Virus record (IMG/VR): IMGVR_UViG_2737471869_000025
Length of the DNA: 32,991 nucleotides
Source of the DNA: a virus
Lineage: Duplodnaviria; Heunggongvirae; Uroviricota; Caudoviricetes
Strand: one strand, 5' to 3'
This document shows, in pieces, positions 2,598 to 29,893 of the stretch. The translations under genes and the position numbers were made by a program. The notes below the pieces were generated by a model that saw only the letters and a list, made by a program, of their open reading frames with translations, searched no databases and was not told where the DNA came from. Within the stretch, counting starts at the first letter, position 1; the number at the start of each line of letters is the position of its first letter.

Positions 2598-3094
2598 CAG
2601 TGATGACGCTCAATCTCGTTGAAAAACAGCCAGCAGCTATGCGCCGGATAATTGGCAAGCATCTTGCCGTCCCTCGCTGGCAGGATACATGTGATTATTA
2701 TAATCAGATGATGGAGCGCGAACGGCTAACGGTTTGCTTTCATGCACAGTTAAAACAGCGTCACGCAACGATGCGTTTTGAAGAAATGAACGACGTCGAA
2801 CGTGAACGACTGGTTTGTGCAATTGATGAATTGCGTGGCGCATTCTCAAAACGCCGTCAGGTTGGTGCAAGTGAGTATGCATATATTAGTTTTTTAACAG
2901 TCAGTCAGCGTCGCACTTTATTTATGCACGCACGACTGACTGAAAAAGAATTCAACCAGCCATACTGGCGAATTAATGAAGAATCATGTTACTGGCGTGA
3001 TGCTTTGTTCCGTGCATTACGTGAATTATTCAGCCTGTTTGAGTATGCACCGACAATTCTGACGTCGGTAAAACCAGAGCAATATCTGCATTAA
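2594..3094 (+). CDS. B: Replication protein B (helicase-loader-like)
   Basis: Matches P2 gpB as recalled; start moved to the second ATG (2594), which has a GGAGGG Shine-Dalgarno 8 nt upstream, giving 166 aa. Confidence 0.85.
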   Translation: MTVMTLNLVEKQPAAMRRIIGKHLAVPRWQDTCDYYNQMMERERLTVCFHAQLKQRHATMRFEEMNDVERERLVCAIDELRGAFSKRRQVGASEYAYISFLTVSQRRTLFMHARLTEKEFNQPYWRINEESCYWRDALFRALRELFSLFEYAPTILTSVKPEQYLH

Positions 3095-3157
3095 ATAATT
3101 AACCAGAGTTTTTAACGCACTTAATCGTGCGGGGCTTCTTTTTGCCTGGAGAAAGTC

Positions 3158-3382
3158 ATGCATACAGTTTCTGAAAATCAGTGCGGTATATACGCATTAC
3201 TGCTGCAACAGGCCAGAACCGAAGCACAGGCCGACGCTGCGACGCGCTTTTCTTCTCATCTTGACGCCATGATTCGCCACATCACAAAGGCGGAGTTATC
3301 CCGCGTGGAGATAGTCGAGCTGCTCAGTCAGGAGTCGGAAAAATTTCACAATATCGGATTGTCTCGCGGGAAGGTGCTTTGA
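3158..3382 (+). CDS. Early hypothetical protein (P2 orf80-like)
   Basis: 74-aa ORF in conserved early-operon position. Confidence 0.6.
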
Positions 3383-3684
3383 TGTCCTGTTCTCATTCAG
3401 TTGTATTACTGAATAACGCCTTAAAAATCGCCGTTATGAAAAATGGTGATTTGTCTCTTATTCAACTTTGTCTTGATAAAGAAAAACGCGACATAACTGA
3501 ATCTGTTATCGCGATTTATCAGAATGAATTAAACCTCCTGTCTGATGTGGTCAATTTACTTGTTAAACGCGCTGTATTCCACAAGCAAATTTCATCCGTG
3601 GATGAGCTGACAAAATTAACGACAGAAATCGCCAGCTATTGCGCTGATGAATTCAAGAAACTGAACGATAAAAGGAGCTGGTAA
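3379..3684 (+). CDS. Early hypothetical protein (P2 orf81-like)
   Basis: 101-aa ORF, start overlaps the stop of the preceding gene (translational coupling). Confidence 0.6.
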
Positions 3685-3908
3685 TGCCGGACAACGTAGA
3701 TTTTATTCAGGAACAACAGGCTGAATTACTGGAGCGCCAGATTAACGCGGCAAGGGTAAAACATTGCGGTGTTTCTTCGCTGGTTTGCGAAGAGTGTGAT
3801 GCGCCAATACCTGCTGCCCGTCGTGCGGCTTATCCGTCAGCCACGCGTTGTGTTTCCTGTCAGTCAGTCTTTGAAGCAAAAAACAAACATTACCGGAGAA
3901 CGGCATGA
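3684..3908 (+). CDS. TraR/DksA-family C4 zinc-finger protein (P2 orf82-like)
   Basis: 74 aa with CxxC...CxxC (CEECDAPIPAARRAAYPSATRCVSCQ) typical of the TraR/DksA zinc finger. Confidence 0.7.
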   Translation: MPDNVDFIQEQQAELLERQINAARVKHCGVSSLVCEECDAPIPAARRAAYPSATRCVSCQSVFEAKNKHYRRTA

Positions 3909-4180
3909 GTATTCGTATTGAAATTGGCGAACGTTATGTCGTTACCAGTGACAGCTTTCAGTTTATTCTCCACGAGAAAAAGAGGGCTGAAAGCGGTAAA
4001 AACGCCGGTCAGGAATGGCTGGCGGTAGTTGGTTATTACCCGAAATTAAGCCAGCTCGTTTCCGGCATGATGCATCACGATATTCTGACCGGAAGCGCAA
4101 AGTCTTTTGCTGATTTAAACGCGCAGGTTGAGCAACTCAGCAAGCGTTGTTCAGAGGCTTTTGGCTCACATGGCCGTTAA
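3905..4180 (+). CDS. Early hypothetical protein (P2 orf83-like)
   Basis: 91-aa ORF, overlaps the start of gene A. Confidence 0.55.
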   Translation: MSIRIEIGERYVVTSDSFQFILHEKKRAESGKNAGQEWLAVVGYYPKLSQLVSGMMHHDILTGSAKSFADLNAQVEQLSKRCSEAFGSHGR

Positions 4181-6434
4181 AGCCTCCGGGCATTTTGTCC
4201 CTCCGTCAGCATTTGCCGCAGGCACCGGTAAGACGTTTACCGGTGCTTATGCATGGAACGCGCCACGCGAGGCCGTCGGGCGCGAAAGACCCCTTACACG
4301 TGACGAGATGCGTCAGGTGCAAGGTGTTTTATCCACGATTAACCGCCTGCCTTACTTTTTGCGCTCGCTGTTTACTTCACGCTATGACTACATCCGGCGC
4401 AATAAAAGCCCGGTGCACGGGTTTTATTTCCTCACATCCACTTTTCAGCGTCGTTTATGGCCGCGCATTGAGCGCGTGAATCAGCGCCATGAAATGAACA
4501 CCGACGCGTCGTTGCTGTTTCTGGCAGAGCGCGACCAGTATGCGCGCCTGCCGGGGATGAATGACAAGGAGCTGAAAAAGTTTGCCGCCCGTATCTCATC
4601 ACAGCTTTTCATGATGTATGAGGAACTCTGCGATGCCTGGGTGGATGCGCATGGCGAGAAAGAATCGCTGTTTACGGATGAGGCGCAGGCTCACCTCTAT
4701 GGTCATGTTGCTGGCGCTGCACGTGCTTTCAATATTTCCCCTCTCTACTGGAAAAAATACCGTAAAGGACAGATGACCACGAGGCAGGCATATTCTGCCA
4801 TTGCCCGCCTGTTTAACGATGAGTGGTGGACTCATCAGCTTAAAGGCCAGCGTATGCGCTGGCATGAGGCGTTACTGATTGCTGTCGGGGAGGTCAATAA
4901 AGACCGTTCTCCTTATGCCAGTAAACATGCCATTCGTGATGTGCGTGCGCGCCGCCAGGCAAATCTGGAGTTTCTTAAATCGTGTGACCTTGAGAACAGG
5001 GAAACCGGCGAGCGCATCGACCTTATCAGTAAGGTGATGGGCAGTATTTCTAATCCTGAAATTCGCCGGATGGAGCTGATGAACACCATTGCCGGTATTG
5101 AGCGTTACGCCGATGCAGAGGGTGATGTGGGGATGTTTATCACGCTGACCGCGCCGTCAAAGTATCACCCGACACGTCAGGTCGGAAAAGGCGAAAGTAA
5201 AACCGTGCAGCTTAATCACGGCTGGAACGATGAGGCATTTAATCCAAAGGATGCGCAGCGTTATCTCTGCCGTATCTGGAGCCTGATGCGCACGGCATTC
5301 AAGGATAATGATTTACAGGTCTACGGTTTGCGTGTCGTCGAGCCACACCACGACGGAACGCCGCACTGGCATATGATGCTTTTTTGTAATCCACGCCAGC
5401 GTAACCAGATTATCGAAATCATGCGTCGCTACGCGCTCAAAGAGGATGGCGACGAAAGAGGAGCCGCGCGAAACCGTTTTCAGGCAAAACACCTTAACCG
5501 GGGCGGTGCTGCGGGATATATCGCGAAATACATTTCAAAAAACATCGACGGCTATGCACTGGATGGTCAGCTCGATAACGATACCGGCAGACCGCTGAAA
5601 GACACTGCGGCGGCTGTTACCGCATGGGCGTCAACGTGGCGCATCCCGCAATTTAAAACGGTTGGACTGCCGACAATGGGGGCTTACCGTGAACTACGCA
5701 AATTGCCTCGCGGCGTCAGTATTGCTGATGAGTTTGACGAACGCGTCGAGGCTGCTCGCGCCGCCGCAGACAGTGGCGATTTTGCGCTGTATATCAGCAC
5801 GCAGGGTGGGGCAAATGTTCCGCGCGATTGTCAGACTGTCAGGGTTGCCCGTAGTCCGTCGGATGACGTTAACGAGTACGAGGAAGAAGTCGAGAGAGTG
5901 GTCGGCATTTACGCGCCGCATCTCGGCGCGCGTCATATTCATATCACCAGAACGACGGACTGGCGCATTGTGCCGAAAGTTCCGGTCGTTGAGCCTTTGA
6001 CTTTAAAAAGCGGCATCGCCGCGCCTCGGAGTCCTGTCAATAACTGTGGAAAGCTCACCGGTGGTGATACTTCGTTACCGGCTCCCACACCTTCTGAGCA
6101 CGCCGCAGCAGTGCTTAATCTGGTTGATGACGGTGTTATCGAATGGGATGACCCGGATGTCGTGAGGGCGCTCAGAGGTGCATTGAAACACGGACTGAGA
6201 ACACCAAATCGTCAGCAAAGAAACGGAAGCCCGTTAAAACCGCATGAAATAGCGCCATCAGCCAGACTGACCCGGTCGGAACGAATGCAAATCACCCGTA
6301 TCCGCGTTGACCTTGCTCAGAACGGTATCAGGCCGCAGCGATGGGAACTTGAGGCGCTGGCGCGTGGAGCGACATTGGTATATGGCGAAAAAAAATTCAC
6401 ATATCAGCTTGTTGATAAGCAGTTTGGTTTTTAA
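4170..6434 (+). CDS. A: Replication initiation protein A (rolling-circle nickase)
   Basis: Near-identical to P2 gpA over most of its length as recalled; true start is the ATG at 4170 (MAVKASG...), not the upstream TTG of the ORF track; C-terminal ~25 aa diverge from P2. Confidence 0.9.
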   Translation: MAVKASGHFVPPSAFAAGTGKTFTGAYAWNAPREAVGRERPLTRDEMRQVQGVLSTINRLPYFLRSLFTSRYDYIRRNKSPVHGFYFLTSTFQRRLWPRIERVNQRHEMNTDASLLFLAERDQYARLPGMNDKELKKFAARISSQLFMMYEELCDAWVDAHGEKESLFTDEAQAHLYGHVAGAARAFNISPLYWKKYRKGQMTTRQAYSAIARLFNDEWWTHQLKGQRMRWHEALLIAVGEVNKDRSPYASKHAIRDVRARRQANLEFLKSCDLENRETGERIDLISKVMGSISNPEIRRMELMNTIAGIERYADAEGDVGMFITLTAPSKYHPTRQVGKGESKTVQLNHGWNDEAFNPKDAQRYLCRIWSLMRTAFKDNDLQVYGLRVVEPHHDGTPHWHMMLFCNPRQRNQIIEIMRRYALKEDGDERGAARNRFQAKHLNRGGAAGYIAKYISKNIDGYALDGQLDNDTGRPLKDTAAAVTAWASTWRIPQFKTVGLPTMGAYRELRKLPRGVSIADEFDERVEAARAAADSGDFALYISTQGGANVPRDCQTVRVARSPSDDVNEYEEEVERVVGIYAPHLGARHIHITRTTDWRIVPKVPVVEPLTLKSGIAAPRSPVNNCGKLTGGDTSLPAPTPSEHAAAVLNLVDDGVIEWDDPDVVRALRGALKHGLRTPNRQQRNGSPLKPHEIAPSARLTRSERMQITRIRVDLAQNGIRPQRWELEALARGATLVYGEKKFTYQLVDKQFGF

Positions 6435-6935
6435 TCAAATAGTGTATTAAATGTACTAAAATGTATCTTTTTATATAAAAAACAAAGTGCTGAATCAATT
6501 CTCAGTTTTTGTATTTTTTAGATCGTAAACCGATTAGTGTTACCAAGAGTATTCAGTTAATAGGGCTTTAATTTTTTGCTTCCCTGTTTTGGTGGTTATG
6601 TGGTACTGTTTTTTTATACAGTTTTTGAGGTTGCTGAGAAATAGAAAATGATAGAGTTATATGCGAGCCTTAGTTTAATTCGTTGTAATTAGGATTGGGT
6701 ATATCATTCGTACTGTCAGTGGTCATATACCACTAAGCAAAGCAATAGAATCCTACGAATTATTGTTTAAATAGTAACATTGGCAATTATAACGGCAGTA
6801 TCTGTGTTTTGTCTGTCAGTGGTTACATCGAGAGTATGTGATTTGCATTACATAACTAGTTGATGTTCCTTAGTTGTAGATAGAAAGTATTCGATTTATT
6901 ATAAGAGTACAAAAATTTATGCTAAGGATACTAGA

Positions 6936-7127
6936 ATGGAGTGGATTACACATATAATCACTTTCTTTGTCGGACTAGGAGCGGGTTGGTCGATTCGTGT
7001 CGTGTTTTCATCTAGAAAGCAAATTGGTGATTCCAGCGTGAACTCAAACAATCATACAGTTACTCAAACTGGTAACAGTGTTACAAATGGAAGTATTGTT
7101 GGCGGTAATCAGGATAGGTCACATTAA
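6936..7127 (+). CDS. Small membrane protein of the cargo cassette (single TM helix, Gly/Asn-rich tail)
   Basis: 63 aa; hydrophobic ITHIITFFVGLGAGWSIRVVF then polar tail ending with a GNSVTNGSIVGGNQ motif; first gene of an AT-rich four-gene block. Confidence 0.5.
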   Translation: MEWITHIITFFVGLGAGWSIRVVFSSRKQIGDSSVNSNNHTVTQTGNSVTNGSIVGGNQDRSH

Positions 7128-7138
7128 GAGGTGTTGGT

Positions 7139-7702
7139 GTGTCTATCGAACAGTCAGGAAATACCGTAACAAATGGCAACATAATTTCTGGTGATCAGAC
7201 TAATCATATATTCAATTATCCTGTTAAAGGAACTAACAGGGAGATACAGAAACTTTATGAGTGTTTGAAGAGAGGTGATATAGGGGAAGCGGTTCCGGGG
7301 TTTTGTGCTGAACTAGAGCATTATATGTCCCTTCAGCCTGATATTGATGTTCGGGGGTTAGACGCTAAATTACTCGAGAGTAATAGAAAAGATTTGTTGT
7401 TTTTAGCTAAGCAGATGAAGGAAAAAGCGACAAAAGCTATAATGCGTCGCCAGACGTCAAAAACTGCACAAAGAATATTTGTAATAATTTTAGATCAAAT
7501 TCATTTTGATTTTATAACGAAAGTAACACCACTTATAGAAGCGGATAGCTCCAGAGTGATTGTTGATGAGAAAATCGCTTCAATAATTGATGAATTATAT
7601 TCGTCTTTGGGAGAAAACTTGCTAGAGCTAACAGCAAAAGATCTCTTGGGATTACTATTTTTTCTGGGTGGCAATTGCCATATAAGGTGGGATAAATGCT
7701 AA
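7139..7702 (+). CDS. Hypothetical protein of the cargo cassette (187 aa)
   Basis: GTG start 7 nt after an AAGAGG Shine-Dalgarno; N-terminus GNTVTNGNIISGDQ repeats the C-terminal motif of the upstream ORF; no recognisable catalytic motif. Confidence 0.6.
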   Translation: MSIEQSGNTVTNGNIISGDQTNHIFNYPVKGTNREIQKLYECLKRGDIGEAVPGFCAELEHYMSLQPDIDVRGLDAKLLESNRKDLLFLAKQMKEKATKAIMRRQTSKTAQRIFVIILDQIHFDFITKVTPLIEADSSRVIVDEKIASIIDELYSSLGENLLELTAKDLLGLLFFLGGNCHIRWDKC

Positions 7703-8196
7703 TTTACCATCCAGCATATGATGCATATCATTGTTTATTCAGAATGATTGCTCTTATAGACCATGTAAATGAAATTGAGGTAGATAAGGCCAGGATTTTG
7801 GACTTCTATCTGCTATTTCCTGCTTTGGTATCTGAAATTAGAATGCCTCATAATTATTCTTCAATGAAGAAAGAAGCGAAGAAGTATTCTAATATATATC
7901 GGGATCCTATTAATGTTACATCTACATTCAGAGATATGTATGAAATTCAAATGGCAGCAATAAGATGTCTTGCAGCTACTGGGTTGGTTGAGATGGATTG
8001 TCTTGAGAAAAACATTATAAAGAGAACAGATAAGTCTGTTCCAGATGGCTTATTACTTTCTATTAATAATTTTATTAATACGAATAAAACTATTAATACA
8101 TTTATCATAGACACACTATCTAAATTCCATTTGGTTGGAAAAGATGGTTTAAAAGATAGAACGAAGTTAATGGAGTTTAGATATGACTATTCTTAA
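7696..8196 (+). CDS. Hypothetical protein of the cargo cassette (166 aa, possible middle component)
   Basis: Start overlaps the upstream stop and its own stop overlaps the ATPase start (operon-like coupling); no recognisable motif. Confidence 0.6.
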   Translation: MLIYHPAYDAYHCLFRMIALIDHVNEIEVDKARILDFYLLFPALVSEIRMPHNYSSMKKEAKKYSNIYRDPINVTSTFRDMYEIQMAAIRCLAATGLVEMDCLEKNIIKRTDKSVPDGLLLSINNFINTNKTINTFIIDTLSKFHLVGKDGLKDRTKLMEFRYDYS

Positions 8197-10120
8197 TCCA
8201 TCTTTTTTTGTTAGTAAATTAAAAGTTTTCCAAGCTGGGCATGAAGCCTTTAGCTGTGTTTTCCATAAAGGGGTAAATGTAATAAGGGGGCGAAATAGCT
8301 CTGGCAAAACTACTGTTATGGATCTTTTAGCATTTTCACTTGGTGCTGAAAATATTAGCTTGAAACCAACAGCTCTTTTATGTTCATTTACCATGGTTGA
8401 AGTGCTTTTGAATAATAATCTTGCCTGTTTTAAGCGGGAGATAAGTTCAGAATCCATGCGACCGTTGAGTATTTTTTGGGGCTCGATGGATAAAGCTCTT
8501 AACTCATCACCGAGTCAGTGGCAAACTTATCCTTTTAAGCGTTCAGAAAAATCACTGAGTTTTTCTCAGGTAATTTTAAATGCTTTAGATATGCCTCTAG
8601 CTCAAGGAGAGGGTGCTTCAATTTTAACAATGCATCAAATCCTACGTGTATTATATGCAGATCAGCCATCTCTTCATAGTCCTATATTTAGGAACGATAA
8701 TTTTGATAGAGCTCTAACACGAGAGACTATTGGTGATTATTTATGTGGTATATTTGATGACAAACTTTATAGCTCTTTGATTAGGCTTAAACAAGTTGAT
8801 GCTGAACTTTCGACAAAAATTGTTGAGCTGAAAAGCATATTTAAAGTTCTTGGACGCTCTGGGCAATCGCAGCATGTAAGTTTTATTGACGATAAAATAA
8901 AAGAGCTAAGAGAGAAGAAAGAAAAGATCAATGGCGAGCTTATCTCTCTCAAAGAGAGTAATAACTCTTCTGTTAATGATAAAAATGCTGATAAAACTAA
9001 AACTAACAACCTTCGAAAAAAATTAAATAAAGCGAAAGAAGAAGAAGTAAAAAATATTGACAGTATCCATATGTTAGAAATGGAGATAGCTGACTCTGAA
9101 ATGTTCATTAATGAGTTAGAATCCAGATTGCGCTCTCTTAATGAATCAAGTATTGCCAGAGACTATTTTAGCAACGTTAAATTTCAATTTTGTCCCAGTT
9201 GTTTAAGTGAGTTGAATATTTCCTCTGAAAATGAGTGCTCATTATGTAAAAATCACGCGCCAGAGGGTAGTGATGCTCCTCAATTATTAAGGATGAAAAA
9301 TGAGATTTCTATCCAATTAAAAGAATCCAGAGATCTTCTTGAGCATAATTATGTAAAACTGAGAGAGCTTAAGAGCCAATCTCCTGCTTTAAAGCAAAAA
9401 GTGCGAGATTTAATTCGTGAATATGAAGAAGTCTCTAAGGTTTGGGAAAATGCCTATGAAATAGAGTTTGAAACTCTTACTAAGGCTCTGGGACGTGTTG
9501 AAGAAGAAATTAAACAGGCTTGTGAATTACAAAAACTTAGTGATGTAATATCTGATTTGCAAAAAGAACGTGATAGTCTGCAGTTAGAGAAGGAGAGATT
9601 GTCCTCTTTAATTGAATCTTTGGAGAGTAAAGAGGAATATAGGAAGAAGGATATTTCTAAAACTATAGAAAAAATTATGAAAAGACTTCTTAAAAAAGAT
9701 CTTCCATTGCAGACTGAATTTATTGATCCCAGAAAAGTTAATTTTAGCTTTGCCGATAATACTGTTTATGTAAATGGGGCTAAGTATTTTTCAGAAAGTT
9801 CAGCAGTTGTATTAAGACATCTCTTTCATTTAGCATTGTTAACTGCAAGCATTGAAAAAAAATACATGAGATTACCTCGTTTCCTAATGCTTGATGGAAT
9901 TGACGATGGTGGAATGGAGAAAGAGCGCAGTCACAATCTGCAGAAAATAATAGTACAAGAAACTCAATCGTATCAATATGATTTTCAAATAATTTATGCG
10001 ACATCGGAGATTAATCCAGAATATGAAAATACCGATTTGATTGTTGGTCGGTATTTTAATCCAGATGATAAATCATTAAAGATAAATTATACCGCTCTTG
10101 ATAAAGATTTATTGAACTAA
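8183..10120 (+). CDS. SMC/Rad50-like ABC ATPase with coiled coil and putative zinc hook (candidate defence ATPase)
   Basis: 645 aa; Walker A GRNSSGKTT (aa 36-44); Walker B/D-loop-like RFLMLDGIDDGG (aa 566-577); about 300 aa of charged heptad-like sequence between the lobes; CPSC-x11-CSLC at aa 337-355, the midpoint. Confidence 0.8.
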   Translation: MTILNPSFFVSKLKVFQAGHEAFSCVFHKGVNVIRGRNSSGKTTVMDLLAFSLGAENISLKPTALLCSFTMVEVLLNNNLACFKREISSESMRPLSIFWGSMDKALNSSPSQWQTYPFKRSEKSLSFSQVILNALDMPLAQGEGASILTMHQILRVLYADQPSLHSPIFRNDNFDRALTRETIGDYLCGIFDDKLYSSLIRLKQVDAELSTKIVELKSIFKVLGRSGQSQHVSFIDDKIKELREKKEKINGELISLKESNNSSVNDKNADKTKTNNLRKKLNKAKEEEVKNIDSIHMLEMEIADSEMFINELESRLRSLNESSIARDYFSNVKFQFCPSCLSELNISSENECSLCKNHAPEGSDAPQLLRMKNEISIQLKESRDLLEHNYVKLRELKSQSPALKQKVRDLIREYEEVSKVWENAYEIEFETLTKALGRVEEEIKQACELQKLSDVISDLQKERDSLQLEKERLSSLIESLESKEEYRKKDISKTIEKIMKRLLKKDLPLQTEFIDPRKVNFSFADNTVYVNGAKYFSESSAVVLRHLFHLALLTASIEKKYMRLPRFLMLDGIDDGGMEKERSHNLQKIIVQETQSYQYDFQIIYATSEINPEYENTDLIVGRYFNPDDKSLKINYTALDKDLLN

Positions 10121-10124
10121 CAAC

Positions 10125-10154
10125 CAAAACCATGCATAACCATGCATGGTTTTG
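10125..10154 (+). terminator. Hairpin immediately after the cargo operon (possible terminator)
   Basis: 12-bp perfect stem 10125..10136 / 10143..10154 with 6-nt loop, 5 nt after the ATPase stop; the T-run is partly inside the stem, so strength is uncertain. Confidence 0.45.
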
Positions 10155-10263
10155 CATTTATATCAGCTTGTTTTTGAATCGGGGCAAGTCCAGAGGTGGT
10201 AAGCTGTTTGGAGAAAACTGCAACTGCATTAAAACCGCCCCACGAAGCGGGCGGGCGAGGCGG

Positions 10264-10282
10264 GGAAAGCACTGCGCGCTGG
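10264..10282. other. cos: cos cohesive-end site (19 nt)
   Basis: ggcgaggcggggaaagcac matches the P2 19-nt cohesive end as recalled; located between the cargo and Q as in P2; flanked by GC-rich dyads. Confidence 0.65.
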
Positions 10283-10441
10283 CGGTGGTGCTGATTTTAT
10301 TTTTTCAGCGTCTGAGCGCGTCGTGATGGCGTTTAGATTGTTCGCCGGGGGCGTTGGTGTGTATGCGGGCTGTTTTGCGCGGTGGTGAGCGTGTGAGGGC
10401 GTGATGACGGGGTGTAAAAAGCCGCCCGCAGGCGGCGATGT

Positions 10442-11476
10442 TCAGCCGTTGTCAGTGTCCAGTGAGTAGTTTTTAAAGCGGATGACCTCCTGACCGAGCC
10501 AGCCGTTTATTTCCCGAATCCTGTCCTGTAGCGGGATAAGCTCATTGCGGACAAAGACCTTTGCCACTTTCTCAATATCGCCCAGCGACCCGACGTTCTC
10601 CGGCTTGCCGCCCATCAACTGAAAGGGGATGCGGTGCGCGTCCAGCAGGTCAGCGGCGCTGGCTTTTTTGATATTAAAAAAATCGTCCTTCGTTGCCACT
10701 TCACTGAGCGGGATAATTTTAATGCCGTCGGCTTTCCCCTGTGGGGCATAGAGAAACAGATTTTTAAAGTTATTGCGGCCTTTCGACTTAACCATGTTTT
10801 CGCGAAGCATTTCGATATCGTTGCGGTCCTGCACGGCATCGGTGACGTACATGATGTATCCGGCATGTGCGCCGTTTTCGTAATACTTGCGGCGGAACAG
10901 CGTGGCTGATTCATTCAGCCAGGCAGAGTTAAGGGCGCTGAGATATTCCGGCAGACCGTACAGCTCCTGATTAATATCCGGCTCCAGCAGGTGAAACACG
11001 GAGCCGGGCGCGAAAGGTGTCGGCTCATGGAAGGACGGCACCCACCAGTAAACATCCTCTTCCACGCCACGGCGGGTATATTTTGCCGGTGAGGTTTCCA
11101 GTCTGATGACCTTACCGGTGGTGCTGTAACGCTTTTCCAGAAACGCATTACCGAACACCAGAAAGTCCAGCACAAAGCGGCTGAAATTCTGCTGTGAAAG
11201 CCACGGATGCGGGATAAATGTCGAGGCCAGAATATTGCGTTTAACGTAAATCGGCGAGCTGTGATGCACGGCAGCACGCAGGCTTTTTGCCAGACCGGTA
11301 AAGCTGACCGGCGGCTCATACCATCTGCCGTTACTGATGCACTCGACGTAATCCAGAATGTCACGGCGGTCGAGTACCGGCACCGGCTCGCCAAAGGTGA
11401 ATGCCTCCATTTTCGGGGCGCTGGCGGTCATTTTTTTTGCCGCAGGTTGCGGTGTTTTCCCTTTTTTCTTGCTCAT
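10442..11476 (-). CDS. Q: Portal protein
   Basis: 344 aa, matches P2 gpQ as recalled; position next to cos and upstream of P. Confidence 0.95.
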   Translation of the reverse strand: MSKKKGKTPQPAAKKMTASAPKMEAFTFGEPVPVLDRRDILDYVECISNGRWYEPPVSFTGLAKSLRAAVHHSSPIYVKRNILASTFIPHPWLSQQNFSRFVLDFLVFGNAFLEKRYSTTGKVIRLETSPAKYTRRGVEEDVYWWVPSFHEPTPFAPGSVFHLLEPDINQELYGLPEYLSALNSAWLNESATLFRRKYYENGAHAGYIMYVTDAVQDRNDIEMLRENMVKSKGRNNFKNLFLYAPQGKADGIKIIPLSEVATKDDFFNIKKASAADLLDAHRIPFQLMGGKPENVGSLGDIEKVAKVFVRNELIPLQDRIREINGWLGQEVIRFKNYSLDTDNG

Positions 11477-29413: not shown

Positions 29414-29893
29414 ATGATGCTCGCGTTAGGTATGTTTGTTTTTATGCGCCAGACGCTGCCACACCAGACCATGCAGCGTGAATCAGATTATCGCTGGCCG
29501 TCAAATTCCCGTATCGGCAAACGGGATGCCTTTCAATTTCTCGGTGTGGGTGAGGAAAACATCACGCTTGCCGGTGTGCTTTATCCCGAACTGACCGGCG
29601 GAAAGCTGACGATGACCACGCTCAGGCTGATGGCTGAGGAAGGCCGGGCGTGGCCGTTGCTGGATGGCACTGGCATGATTTACGGCATGTATGTCATCAG
29701 CAAGGTGAGTGAAACAGGGAGTATTTTCTTTGCAGACGGCACACCCCGGAAAATTGATTTTACGCTGTCGCTCACCCGCGTTGATGAATCACTGGCCGCG
29801 CTTTATGGCGATATCGGTAAACAGGCGGAATCGCTCATCGGTAAGGCTGGCAGTATGGCGACTAAATTCACGGGTATGACGGGGGCGGGATAA
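29414..29893 (+). CDS. U: Tail protein U
   Basis: 159 aa, matches P2 gpU as recalled. Confidence 0.93.
   Translation: MMLALGMFVFMRQTLPHQTMQRESDYRWPSNSRIGKRDAFQFLGVGEENITLAGVLYPELTGGKLTMTTLRLMAEEGRAWPLLDGTGMIYGMYVISKVSETGSIFFADGTPRKIDFTLSLTRVDESLAALYGDIGKQAESLIGKAGSMATKFTGMTGAG

What the first reader, a model, noticed from the sequence alone, without database searches (positions are those of the whole stretch)
6330..6470. Cargo boundary falls inside the 3' end of replication gene A
gpA tracks my recollection of P2 gpA until about its last 25 residues, then diverges and ends in AT-rich codons (GEKKFTYQLVDKQFGF) before a long AT-rich spacer. The left recombination junction of the cargo therefore seems to lie within the A coding sequence, giving a chimeric A C-terminus.
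Basis: partly seen in the sequence, partly recalled or inferred. Interest (0 to 1): 0.4.

Follow-up and report, generated by a model that had tools for sequence, protein, structure and literature searches.

The report
Diverged gene A tail at P2 hotspot
The last 20 codons of the replication gene A of this P2-like prophage are a strongly diverged but still homologous version of the normal gene end, inherited together with the neighbouring defence-gene cassette; it is an ordinary edge of a well-known phage variable region.

Summary
Against phage P2, gene A (4170-6434) has 3.5% mismatches over 1500 nt, then 36.7% over its last 60 nt. The change point is 6371/6372 (p=1.5e-15), and tail GC is 0.32 against 0.56 upstream.

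The tail is not foreign cargo DNA. It keeps the invariant residues of the gpA C-terminus (Y, F, Y, then D..GF) and is predicted to start with the same beta-hairpin.

In about 83 P2-type loci there are more than 55 tail alleles. The residues after GF track the downstream cargo, so P2's own end is equally cargo-linked. In the tail dS and dN are both raised and dN/dS is 0.32. This points to older, imported alleles with relaxed constraint, not diversifying selection.

The cargo is a four-gene Lamassu / ABC-3C cassette (6832 to about 10197) in the known gpA-gpQ hotspot, next to cos. The same cassette occurs in 186-like phages.

The AT-rich spacer holds a relic of the 186 SOS promoter p95, with an invariant LexA box at 6604-6623.

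Carriers of this cassette share a near-identical block from inside A to about 10200, which indicates exchange by flanking homologous recombination.

Verdict: ordinary, low to moderate interest.

The parts
4170..6434 (+). Gene A, the rolling-circle replication endonuclease gpA (754 aa). The backbone part is 96% identical to P2 gpA.
   Evidence: BLASTP against P2 gpA. Pfam PF05840 Phage_GPA, E=3e-124. Active-site tyrosines Y450 and Y454 are invariant in 62 homologues.
5985..6059 (+). ori island inside gene A. The P2 nick site maps to about 6028. This is the most conserved DNA stretch across diverged lineages.
   Evidence: The P2 nick annotated at 29892 maps through an ungapped match. Identity is 89-95% to lineages that are otherwise 55-80% identical. 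The block shared with L016 starts at about 6000.
6336..6371 (+). Conserved block coding QRWELEALARGA, immediately left of the break. It is the likely crossover anchor.
   Evidence: Per-codon diversity is about 0-0.09, except the last two codons (0.15-0.22, third positions), with 1-3 residue types. Identity is 83-97% in the 30 nt before the tail for six of seven compared loci, including a locus from a 71-76% gpA lineage; L100 scored 0.23 at the fixed offset.
6372..6434 (+). Diverged, AT-rich tail allele of gene A (TLVYGEKKFTYQLVDKQFGF plus stop). It is linked to this cargo.
   Evidence: 36.7% mismatch to P2 with change point at 6371. The tail is identical in all carriers of this cargo. AlphaFold predicts a beta-hairpin TLVY/KFTY with pLDDT about 87-90.
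6435..6831 (+). AT-rich non-coding spacer, found only with this tail and cassette.
   Evidence: Found only in the same 19 E. coli genomes. No Rfam family and no terminator. Only the region around the LexA box aligns with other lineages.
6580..6623 (+). Relic of the phage 186 SOS promoter p95. The -35 is TTCCCT (6580-6585), followed by an 18-nt spacer. The -10 is TACTGT (6604-6609). The LexA box is TACTGTTTTTTTATACAGTT (6604-6623).
   Evidence: Aligns with the annotated 186 p95 promoter and LexA site with the same geometry. The box core is invariant in 10 lineages within a spacer of 49% mean identity. It is the only such site in the 33-kb window, with 0.23 expected.
6832..10197 (+). Lamassu / ABC-3C defence cassette with four genes. 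These are a small membrane protein (6936-7127), a CTD9 protein (7139-7702), middle component MC5 (7696-8196) and an SMC-like ATPase LmuB (8183-10120).
   Evidence: Pfam PF20285 CTD9 (2e-29) and PF20291 MC5 (1e-52). PADLOC LmuB, 1e-46. RefSeq names. About 75% DNA identity to cassettes in other Peduoviridae, starting at 6832-6861.
10125..10154 (+). 13-bp-stem hairpin just after the last cassette gene. It resembles a terminator.
10198..10219 (.). Right junction of the cargo. From here on, other P2-like prophages with different cargo match again.
   Evidence: Matches of over 2000 E. coli records begin at query positions 3763/3772/3784. Backbone-level mismatches resume at about 10200.
10254..10272 (+). 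P2 cohesive end site cos (GGCGAGGCGGGGAAAGCAC).
   Evidence: Read directly from the sequence. Identification as the P2 cos sequence rests on my own knowledge; the position agrees with the cosR annotation at the end of the P2 record.
10442..11476 (-). Portal gene Q, the right flank of the hotspot.
   Evidence: ORF, annotated as portal protein in near-identical genomes.

Best explanation
Positions 6372-6434 are a rare and strongly diverged, but homologous and probably functional, allele of the C-terminal tail of gpA.

The last 20 or so codons of gene A are the graded left edge of the known gpA-gpQ (tin/old) hotspot of P2-like phages. Here old alleles from different Peduoviridae lineages persist because they are physically linked to the cargo.

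In this prophage the tail, an AT-rich spacer carrying a relic of a 186-type SOS promoter, and a Lamassu/ABC-3C cassette most likely arrived together from another, unsampled P2-like lineage. The crossover would have been in the conserved RWELEALARGA-coding block (inferred).

Since then the whole unit has moved between E. coli P2 backbones by ordinary homologous recombination. The left crossovers lie further inside A, near ori or at about 6280. The right crossover lies at about 10200, beside cos (shown by shared blocks).

The protein tolerates the swap because the tail keeps its aromatic skeleton. Its first half forms a hairpin in a small helix-helix-hairpin end domain, and the variable positions fall between the conserved ones (predicted).
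For: - The break is sharp: 3.5% against 36.7% mismatches, change point 6371.
- Synonymous differences also rise, from 39/488 conserved codons upstream to 4/10 in the tail (p=0.007).
- Across 80 unique P2-type sequences the tail has dS 0.45 against 0.21 upstream, dN 0.14 against 0.03, and dN/dS 0.32. This means deeper coalescence and relaxed constraint.
- Y+4, F+9 and Y+11 are invariant and D, W, G, F nearly so in 83 loci.
- Related tails occur in Citrobacter, Klebsiella and Enterobacter gpA, with YGEKKF common and one ending at GF*.
- There are more than 55 tail alleles. The residues after GF are specific to each of about 35 cargo clusters, and the depth of divergence varies between alleles.
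- All carriers of this cargo have this tail.
- Against L016 there are 3 mismatches in 6000-10199, but about 2.4% to the left and 2% to the right. Against L017 the shared block starts at about 6280.
- The cassette is shared with 186-like and intermediate lineages, at 76-85% protein identity while gpA is only 30-63% identical.
- The spacer keeps the 186 p95 promoter and LexA box.
- The hairpin is predicted with pLDDT 87-90.
Against: - No donor lineage with this tail was found. The best DNA identity of any other tail is 72%.
- No phage record has this tail. A metagenome scan found only the same prophage.
- In the other lineages that carry the cassette the gpA tails are unrelated to this one. Joint import of tail and cassette is therefore inferred only from their linkage in E. 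coli.
- The strong G/C to A/T bias (14 against 4) would also fit local decay in place.
- Tail GC does not correlate with cargo GC across alleles.
- The RWELEALARGA block is only moderately conserved at DNA level in the more distant lineages.
Confidence: 0.6

Rival explanations
1. In-place rapid divergence. The tail is the ordinary P2 tail that accumulated many AT-biased substitutions next to the AT-rich insert, through relaxed constraint or local mutational bias, without being imported.
For: - Changes are G/C to A/T 14 times and the reverse 4 times.
- All tails are compositionally intermediate, with mean GC 0.44 between 0.565 upstream and 0.38 downstream.
- No donor was found.
- dN/dS is higher in the tail.
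Against: - The step is abrupt at one codon.
- The tail differs from P2 at 36.7% of its 60 nt, as much as tails from lineages with only 60-80% gpA identity.
- The tail is identical in all 19 or more carriers, although their backbones differ by 2-5%.
- Other alleles show mosaic patterns, with the same end combined with different inner parts.
Confidence: 0.2
2. An illegitimate recombination junction inside A fused unrelated cargo DNA in frame, creating a new chimeric C-terminus.
For: There is a sharp break inside the coding sequence. The codons are AT-rich like the cargo.
Against: - 10 of 20 residues are identical to P2, without gaps, and include all family-invariant positions.
- The same hairpin is predicted.
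- The cassette in other lineages starts 400 nt further right and sits behind other tails.
Confidence: 0.05
3. Diversifying selection. The gpA tail is a specificity determinant, for example for self-recognition between co-resident P2-like replicons or for escape from defence systems that sense gpA. It is driven to vary and co-adapted with the cargo.
For: - There are more than 55 alleles in about 83 loci, with 5-9 residue types at variable positions set between invariant ones.
- The tail is linked to defence cargo.
Against: - dN/dS in the tail is 0.32, and dS is raised as well.
- Linkage is expected from simple adjacency.
- There is no known function for the tail.
- The mini-domain has no structural relative.
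Confidence: 0.08

Closest known systems
The gpA-gpQ (tin/old, cos-proximal) defence hotspot of P2-like phages (Rousset et al. 2022, PMC9122126; NAR 2026, PMC13586616; iLund4u preprint 10.1101/2024.10.15.618418)
   Same: Same position between replication gene A and portal gene Q, next to cos. The cargo is AT-rich, highly variable and defence-related, and cassettes are exchanged between phages.
   Different: Those studies delimit the hotspot by whole genes. In the text searches I ran they do not mention that the variable zone begins about 20 codons inside A, nor that the gpA C-terminus co-varies with the cargo. Older P2 literature (Nilsson et al. 2004) could not be read here.
SOS operon of coliphage 186 (p95 promoter with LexA box, then tum, then orf97), located between gene A and cos
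   Same: The window spacer has the same -35 / 18-nt spacer / -10 geometry, with a LexA box overlapping the -10. It aligns with the annotated 186 site. In 186-like loci the Lamassu cassette replaces orf97, downstream of a truncated tum.
   Different: The window has no tum coding sequence. Its backbone is P2-type, and P2 is classically not SOS-inducible (own knowledge). The -35 is weaker (TTCCCT against TTCACA). LexA binding and promoter activity are untested.
Lamassu / ABC-three-component (ABC-3C) defence systems
   Same: It has an SMC-like ATPase matching LmuB, a middle component MC5 and a protein with the ABC-3C C-terminal domain CTD9.
   Different: The CTD9 protein is only 187 aa and has no recognisable effector domain. 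An extra conserved 63-aa membrane protein shares a GNxVTNGxIxxGxQ motif with its N-terminus. Defence activity is untested.
Mosaic junctions made by relaxed or short-homology recombination between temperate phages (e.g. De Paepe et al. 2014, PMC3945230; title and abstract seen, body not read)
   Same: There are sharp similarity breaks next to a short conserved stretch. Modules are shared between phages that are otherwise much more diverged.
   Different: Here the break lies inside an essential gene and leaves a homologous, in-frame, full-length end. The recombinase involved is unknown.

Membership tests
P2 gpA / Phage_GPA rolling-circle replication endonuclease | Match to the family profile over the catalytic region | tested here: met
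   PF05840, E=3e-124, residues 133-462. 96% identity to P2 gpA.
P2 gpA / Phage_GPA rolling-circle replication endonuclease | Two active-site tyrosines (Y450 and Y454 in P2, from my own knowledge of the P2 literature) and a histidine motif | tested here: met
   Y450 and Y454 (YIAKY) and HHDGTPHWH are invariant in 62 aligned homologues.
P2 gpA / Phage_GPA rolling-circle replication endonuclease | ori with its nick site inside the 3' part of the gene | tested here: met
   The P2 nick site maps to about 6028 in an ungapped match. Positions 5985-6059 form the most conserved island. Nicking itself is not testable here.
P2 gpA-gpQ defence hotspot | Variable, AT-rich cargo between gene A and cos / gene Q, differing between otherwise similar prophages | tested here: met
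   GC profile. Only 19 of about 1680 E. coli genomes with this A gene have this cargo. About 35 cargo clusters occur in 88 loci.
Lamassu / ABC-3C | SMC-like ABC ATPase (LmuB), middle component (LmuC/MC) and an effector-side protein with an ABC-3C C-terminal domain, in one operon | tested here: met
   PADLOC LmuB 1e-46. Pfam MC5 1e-52 and CTD9 2e-29. The genes overlap or abut on one strand.
Lamassu / ABC-3C | A recognisable effector domain and demonstrated anti-phage activity | tested here: inconclusive
   No effector domain was found in the 187-aa or 63-aa proteins in Pfam, NCBIfam or PADLOC. Activity is not testable with these tools.
186-type SOS operon (p95 / LexA / tum) | LexA box CTGT-N8-ACAG overlapping the -10 of a promoter downstream of gene A | tested here: met
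   Positions 6604-6623. It aligns with the annotated 186 site, is invariant in 10 lineages and is unique in the window.
186-type SOS operon (p95 / LexA / tum) | A tum antirepressor gene directly downstream | tested here: not met
   There is no tblastn match to Tum in the window, whereas 186-like carriers keep the first 61 residues.
186-type SOS operon (p95 / LexA / tum) | LexA binding and SOS-dependent transcription | not testable with these tools
   This needs a gel-shift assay, reporter assay or RNA measurement.

The most novel reading that the evidence does not exclude
The gpA C-terminal hairpin could be a cargo-linked specificity element rather than a passive hitch-hiker. It might distinguish self from rival P2-like replicons, or escape defence systems that sense the replication protein. 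In addition, the Lamassu cassette in this P2-type prophage could be wired to the host SOS response through an inherited 186 p95 / LexA operator, which would give a DNA-damage-induced defence module in a phage that is itself not SOS-inducible.
Probability: 0.1. Interest if true: 0.6.

Novelty: new member of a known kind. Interest (0 to 1): 0.27.

Why it matters
It refines where the left edge of a much-used defence-gene hotspot lies. The edge is inside the essential replication gene, not after it. Gene-level pipelines that extract 'everything between gpA and gpQ' therefore miss that the gpA C-terminus is part of the exchanged unit.

It also shows that P2's own gene end is not a neutral reference.

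The practical value is modest. It gives better delimitation of cassettes, a natural map of which gpA end residues tolerate change, and a testable hint that some hotspot cargos, here a Lamassu system, may be under LexA control through a promoter inherited from 186-like phages.

Tried and rejected
- **Short protein query.** A 44-aa tail query in the large protein search returned only 17 short fragments and no informative relatives.
- **Phage records.** A tblastn of the tail against 50,697 phage records found no phage with this tail. The best match was 79.5% over 44 aa.
- **Metagenome scan.** A back-translated pattern for the tail peptide found one contig, which is the same prophage.
- **Species-representative genomes.** These gave only 12 loci, none with this tail.
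- **Tail GC against cargo GC.** There is no correlation across alleles (r=0.20 by allele, r=0.00 by cluster). Composition is therefore not simply inherited from the cargo.
- **Rfam.** Nothing credible in 6000-10600.
- **Consensus scans.** No plus-strand promoter and no terminator in 6250-7200. The p95-like promoter is too weak for that scan and was found only by homology.
- **Full-length AlphaFold model of gpA.** Poor overall (mean pLDDT 49). Only the end domain was usable.
- **Foldseek against the PDB.** The 70-aa end domain had no match below E=1.
- **Diversifying selection.** Tested as the main driver. dN/dS is 0.32, so it was rejected as the primary explanation.
- **Assembly artefact.** Rejected because 19 complete genomes and independent contigs share the sequence.
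Full report
**What the window is.** The region is the early-right end of a P2-like prophage. It contains cox-B-type genes, then replication gene A (4170-6434), an AT-rich insert, the cos site and the portal gene Q on the other strand. gpA is 96% identical to P2 gpA over 754 aligned residues. It matches Pfam Phage_GPA, and the two catalytic tyrosines are invariant among homologues. The P2 origin nick maps to about 6028, inside A.

**Checking the observation.** The protein ends ...ARGATLVYGEKKFTYQLVDKQFGF*, whereas P2 ends ...ARGATVNYDGKKFTYPVADEWPGFSTVMEWT*.
- At DNA level the window differs from P2 at 53 of 1500 positions upstream and at 22 of the last 60 coding positions (Fisher p=1.5e-15). 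The most likely change point is 6371.
- Tail GC is 0.32, against 0.56 just upstream.
- Differences from P2 run G/C to A/T 14 times and the reverse 4 times.
- The tail is followed by about 500 nt at 30-35% GC.
- The same sequence is in 19 complete E. coli genomes and in IMG/VR contigs.

The break lies 20 codons before the stop.

**Is the tail foreign?** It is not.
- The two tails align without gaps, and 10 of 20 residues are identical.
- In 83 unique P2-type loci gathered from IMG/VR, species-representative genomes and reference records, positions Y+4, F+9 and Y+11 after ARGA are invariant. D+15, W+17, G+19 and F+20 are nearly so. The positions between them carry 5-9 different residues.
- The same skeleton is seen in gpA of Salmonella, Citrobacter, Klebsiella, Enterobacter and Kosakonia (74-85% identity). 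There YGEKKF, the state in this window, is common. One Klebsiella protein also stops right after GF.
- AlphaFold models of the whole protein were poor overall but confident at the end. A model of the last 70 residues agrees. Both give two helices followed by a beta-hairpin formed by TLVY and KFTY (pLDDT about 87-90). The last ten residues are less ordered.
- No solved structure resembles this mini-domain.

The first half of the 'diverged' tail is therefore a structural element of gpA, and the reading frame ends exactly where the conserved module ends.

**The tail zone is generally variable and tied to the cargo.**
- The roughly 95 loci carry more than 55 different tails.
- I clustered the first kilobases downstream into about 35 cargo types. 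The residues after GF are specific to each type, for example STVMEWT with orf91-type cargo, LLPI/SLPI, WHQFE and QDEVSFFI.
- The inner 20 residues show several variants per cargo type, and the depth at which they depart from the majority sequence differs between alleles.
- In P2 itself the A stop overlaps the start of orf91, so P2's last seven residues are as cargo-dependent as any.
- Megablast matches of this window to 40 sampled E. coli records out of 1,682 mostly end between 6356 and 6419, inside the tail zone.
- All tails are compositionally intermediate (mean GC 0.44). This one is the third lowest of 59 allele representatives. Tail GC does not follow cargo GC.

**Imported, decayed or selected?**
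- Synonymous differences at conserved codons rise from 8% upstream to 40% in the tail against P2 (p=0.007).
- Across 80 unique sequences, dS is 0.45 in the tail against 0.21 upstream. dN is 0.14 against 0.03, and dN/dS is 0.32.

Both classes of change are raised and dN/dS stays below 1. This fits older alleles with relaxed constraint and gives no support to pervasive diversifying selection. The 30 nt before the break (RWELEALARG) stay 83-97% identical in six of the seven loci compared, including one whose gpA segment is only 71-76% identical; L100 scored 0.23 at the fixed offset. That makes this block a plausible crossover site. No donor was found. The closest other tail is 72% identical in DNA. 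No phage record has this tail, and a metagenome scan found only the same prophage. Import therefore remains an inference, and local AT-biased decay cannot be excluded.

**How the unit moves now.** Among carriers of this cargo, the L016 contig differs from the window at about 2.4% of positions in 4000-5999 and at about 2% beyond 10200. It has only 3 differences in 6000-10199. For L017 the near-identical block begins at about 6280. Recent exchange therefore occurs by homologous recombination in the flanks, well inside gene A on the left and beside cos on the right. The left end of the L016 block coincides with the origin island 5985-6059, the most conserved DNA across lineages.

**What the cargo and the spacer are.**
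- The four genes encode a 63-aa membrane protein, a 187-aa protein with the ABC-3C domain CTD9, middle component MC5 and an SMC-like ATPase matching Lamassu LmuB.
- The same four-gene cassette, at 76-85% protein identity, lies in the A-Q interval of viral contigs whose gpA is only 30-37% identical (186-like) or 61-63% identical.
- DNA similarity to these cassettes starts at 6832-6861 and runs to about 10280.
- Their gpA tails are of their own backbone type, not this one.
- Aligning the spacers revealed one invariant element, TACTGT-N8-ACAGT, at 6604-6623 in the window.
- It aligns with the annotated LexA site and p95 promoter of phage 186, with the same -35 / 18 nt / -10 geometry. It is the only such site in the window, with 0.23 expected by chance.
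- In the 186-like loci it is followed by the first 61 codons of tum. The window has lost tum.

The 'long AT-rich spacer' thus contains a relic of the 186 SOS operon promoter. This implies that the cassette passed through a lineage with that arrangement, and it may still be LexA-controlled (untested).
- On the right, a 13-bp-stem hairpin follows the ATPase gene.
- Other P2 prophages match again from 10198-10219.
- cos lies at 10254-10272.

**Comparison with what is known.** The gpA-gpQ hotspot is well described, but at the level of whole genes (PMC9122126, PMC13586616, 10.1101/2024.10.15.618418). My text searches in these papers found no mention of a boundary inside A, of gpA tail variation or of LexA. 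The finding is therefore a correct but small refinement of a known system, and the cargo is a member of a known defence family.

**Verdict.** The case is ordinary. The most useful by-products are the general picture of the gpA tail as the graded edge of the hotspot, and the LexA box relic.

Noticed in passing
window 6580-6623: A relic of the phage 186 SOS promoter p95 with a LexA box (TACTGTTTTTTTATACAGTT) lies in the spacer upstream of the Lamassu cassette. It is invariant in 10 diverged lineages. In 186-like loci a truncated tum gene follows it, and the window has lost that gene. Two other P2-type cargo types (L069, L019) also have a LexA box within 50 nt of the A stop.
   Followed up: yes
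window 7060-7200: The C-terminus of the 63-aa membrane protein (TQTGNSVTNGSIVGGNQ) and the N-terminus of the next protein (EQSGNTVTNGNIISGDQ) share a repeated motif. The arrangement is conserved in the distant cassettes (L109). It may be a pairing interface, or a split of an ancestral membrane effector.
   Followed up: no
window 6713-6728 and 6813-6828: A direct repeat CTGTCAGTGGTYAYAT occurs twice, 100 nt apart, in the part of the spacer that has no relative elsewhere. It could be an operator-like site or a chance match.
   Followed up: no
window 10125-10154: A perfect 13-bp-stem hairpin lies directly after the LmuB stop codon, at the right end of the cassette. It resembles a terminator on both strands.
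   Followed up: partly
window 5985-6059: The origin (nick-site) island inside gene A is 89-95% identical to lineages that are otherwise 55-80% identical. It coincides with the left end of the block shared with contig L016, so it may serve as a recombination anchor between diverged phages.
   Followed up: partly
L124 (E. coli NCTC9100) 2734-4515: One carrier of the same cargo has a 593-aa reading frame annotated as a Cox family protein that ends at the position of the gene A stop, just upstream of the same spacer. This suggests a deletion fusing cox to the 3' part of A, that is, a defective prophage that kept the defence cassette. The fusion was inferred from the annotation only and not checked by alignment.
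   Followed up: partly
E. coli records: Many complete E. coli assemblies begin exactly at the ATG of P2 gene A (matches start at record position 1531 for window 5700). Genome-rotation tools apparently mistake this prophage replication gene for the chromosomal start gene.
   Followed up: no
L027, L043, L048, L050, L058, L061, L067 (about 1 kb after the A stop): Homologues of phage 186 orf97 (75-79% protein identity) sit in the hotspot of P2-type prophages that also have the orf91-type tail. This is another example of cargo shared between 186-like and P2-like lineages.
   Followed up: no
window 4128-4170: The mechanical ORF list starts gene A at TTG 4128. Comparison with P2 places the start at ATG 4170.
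   Followed up: yes
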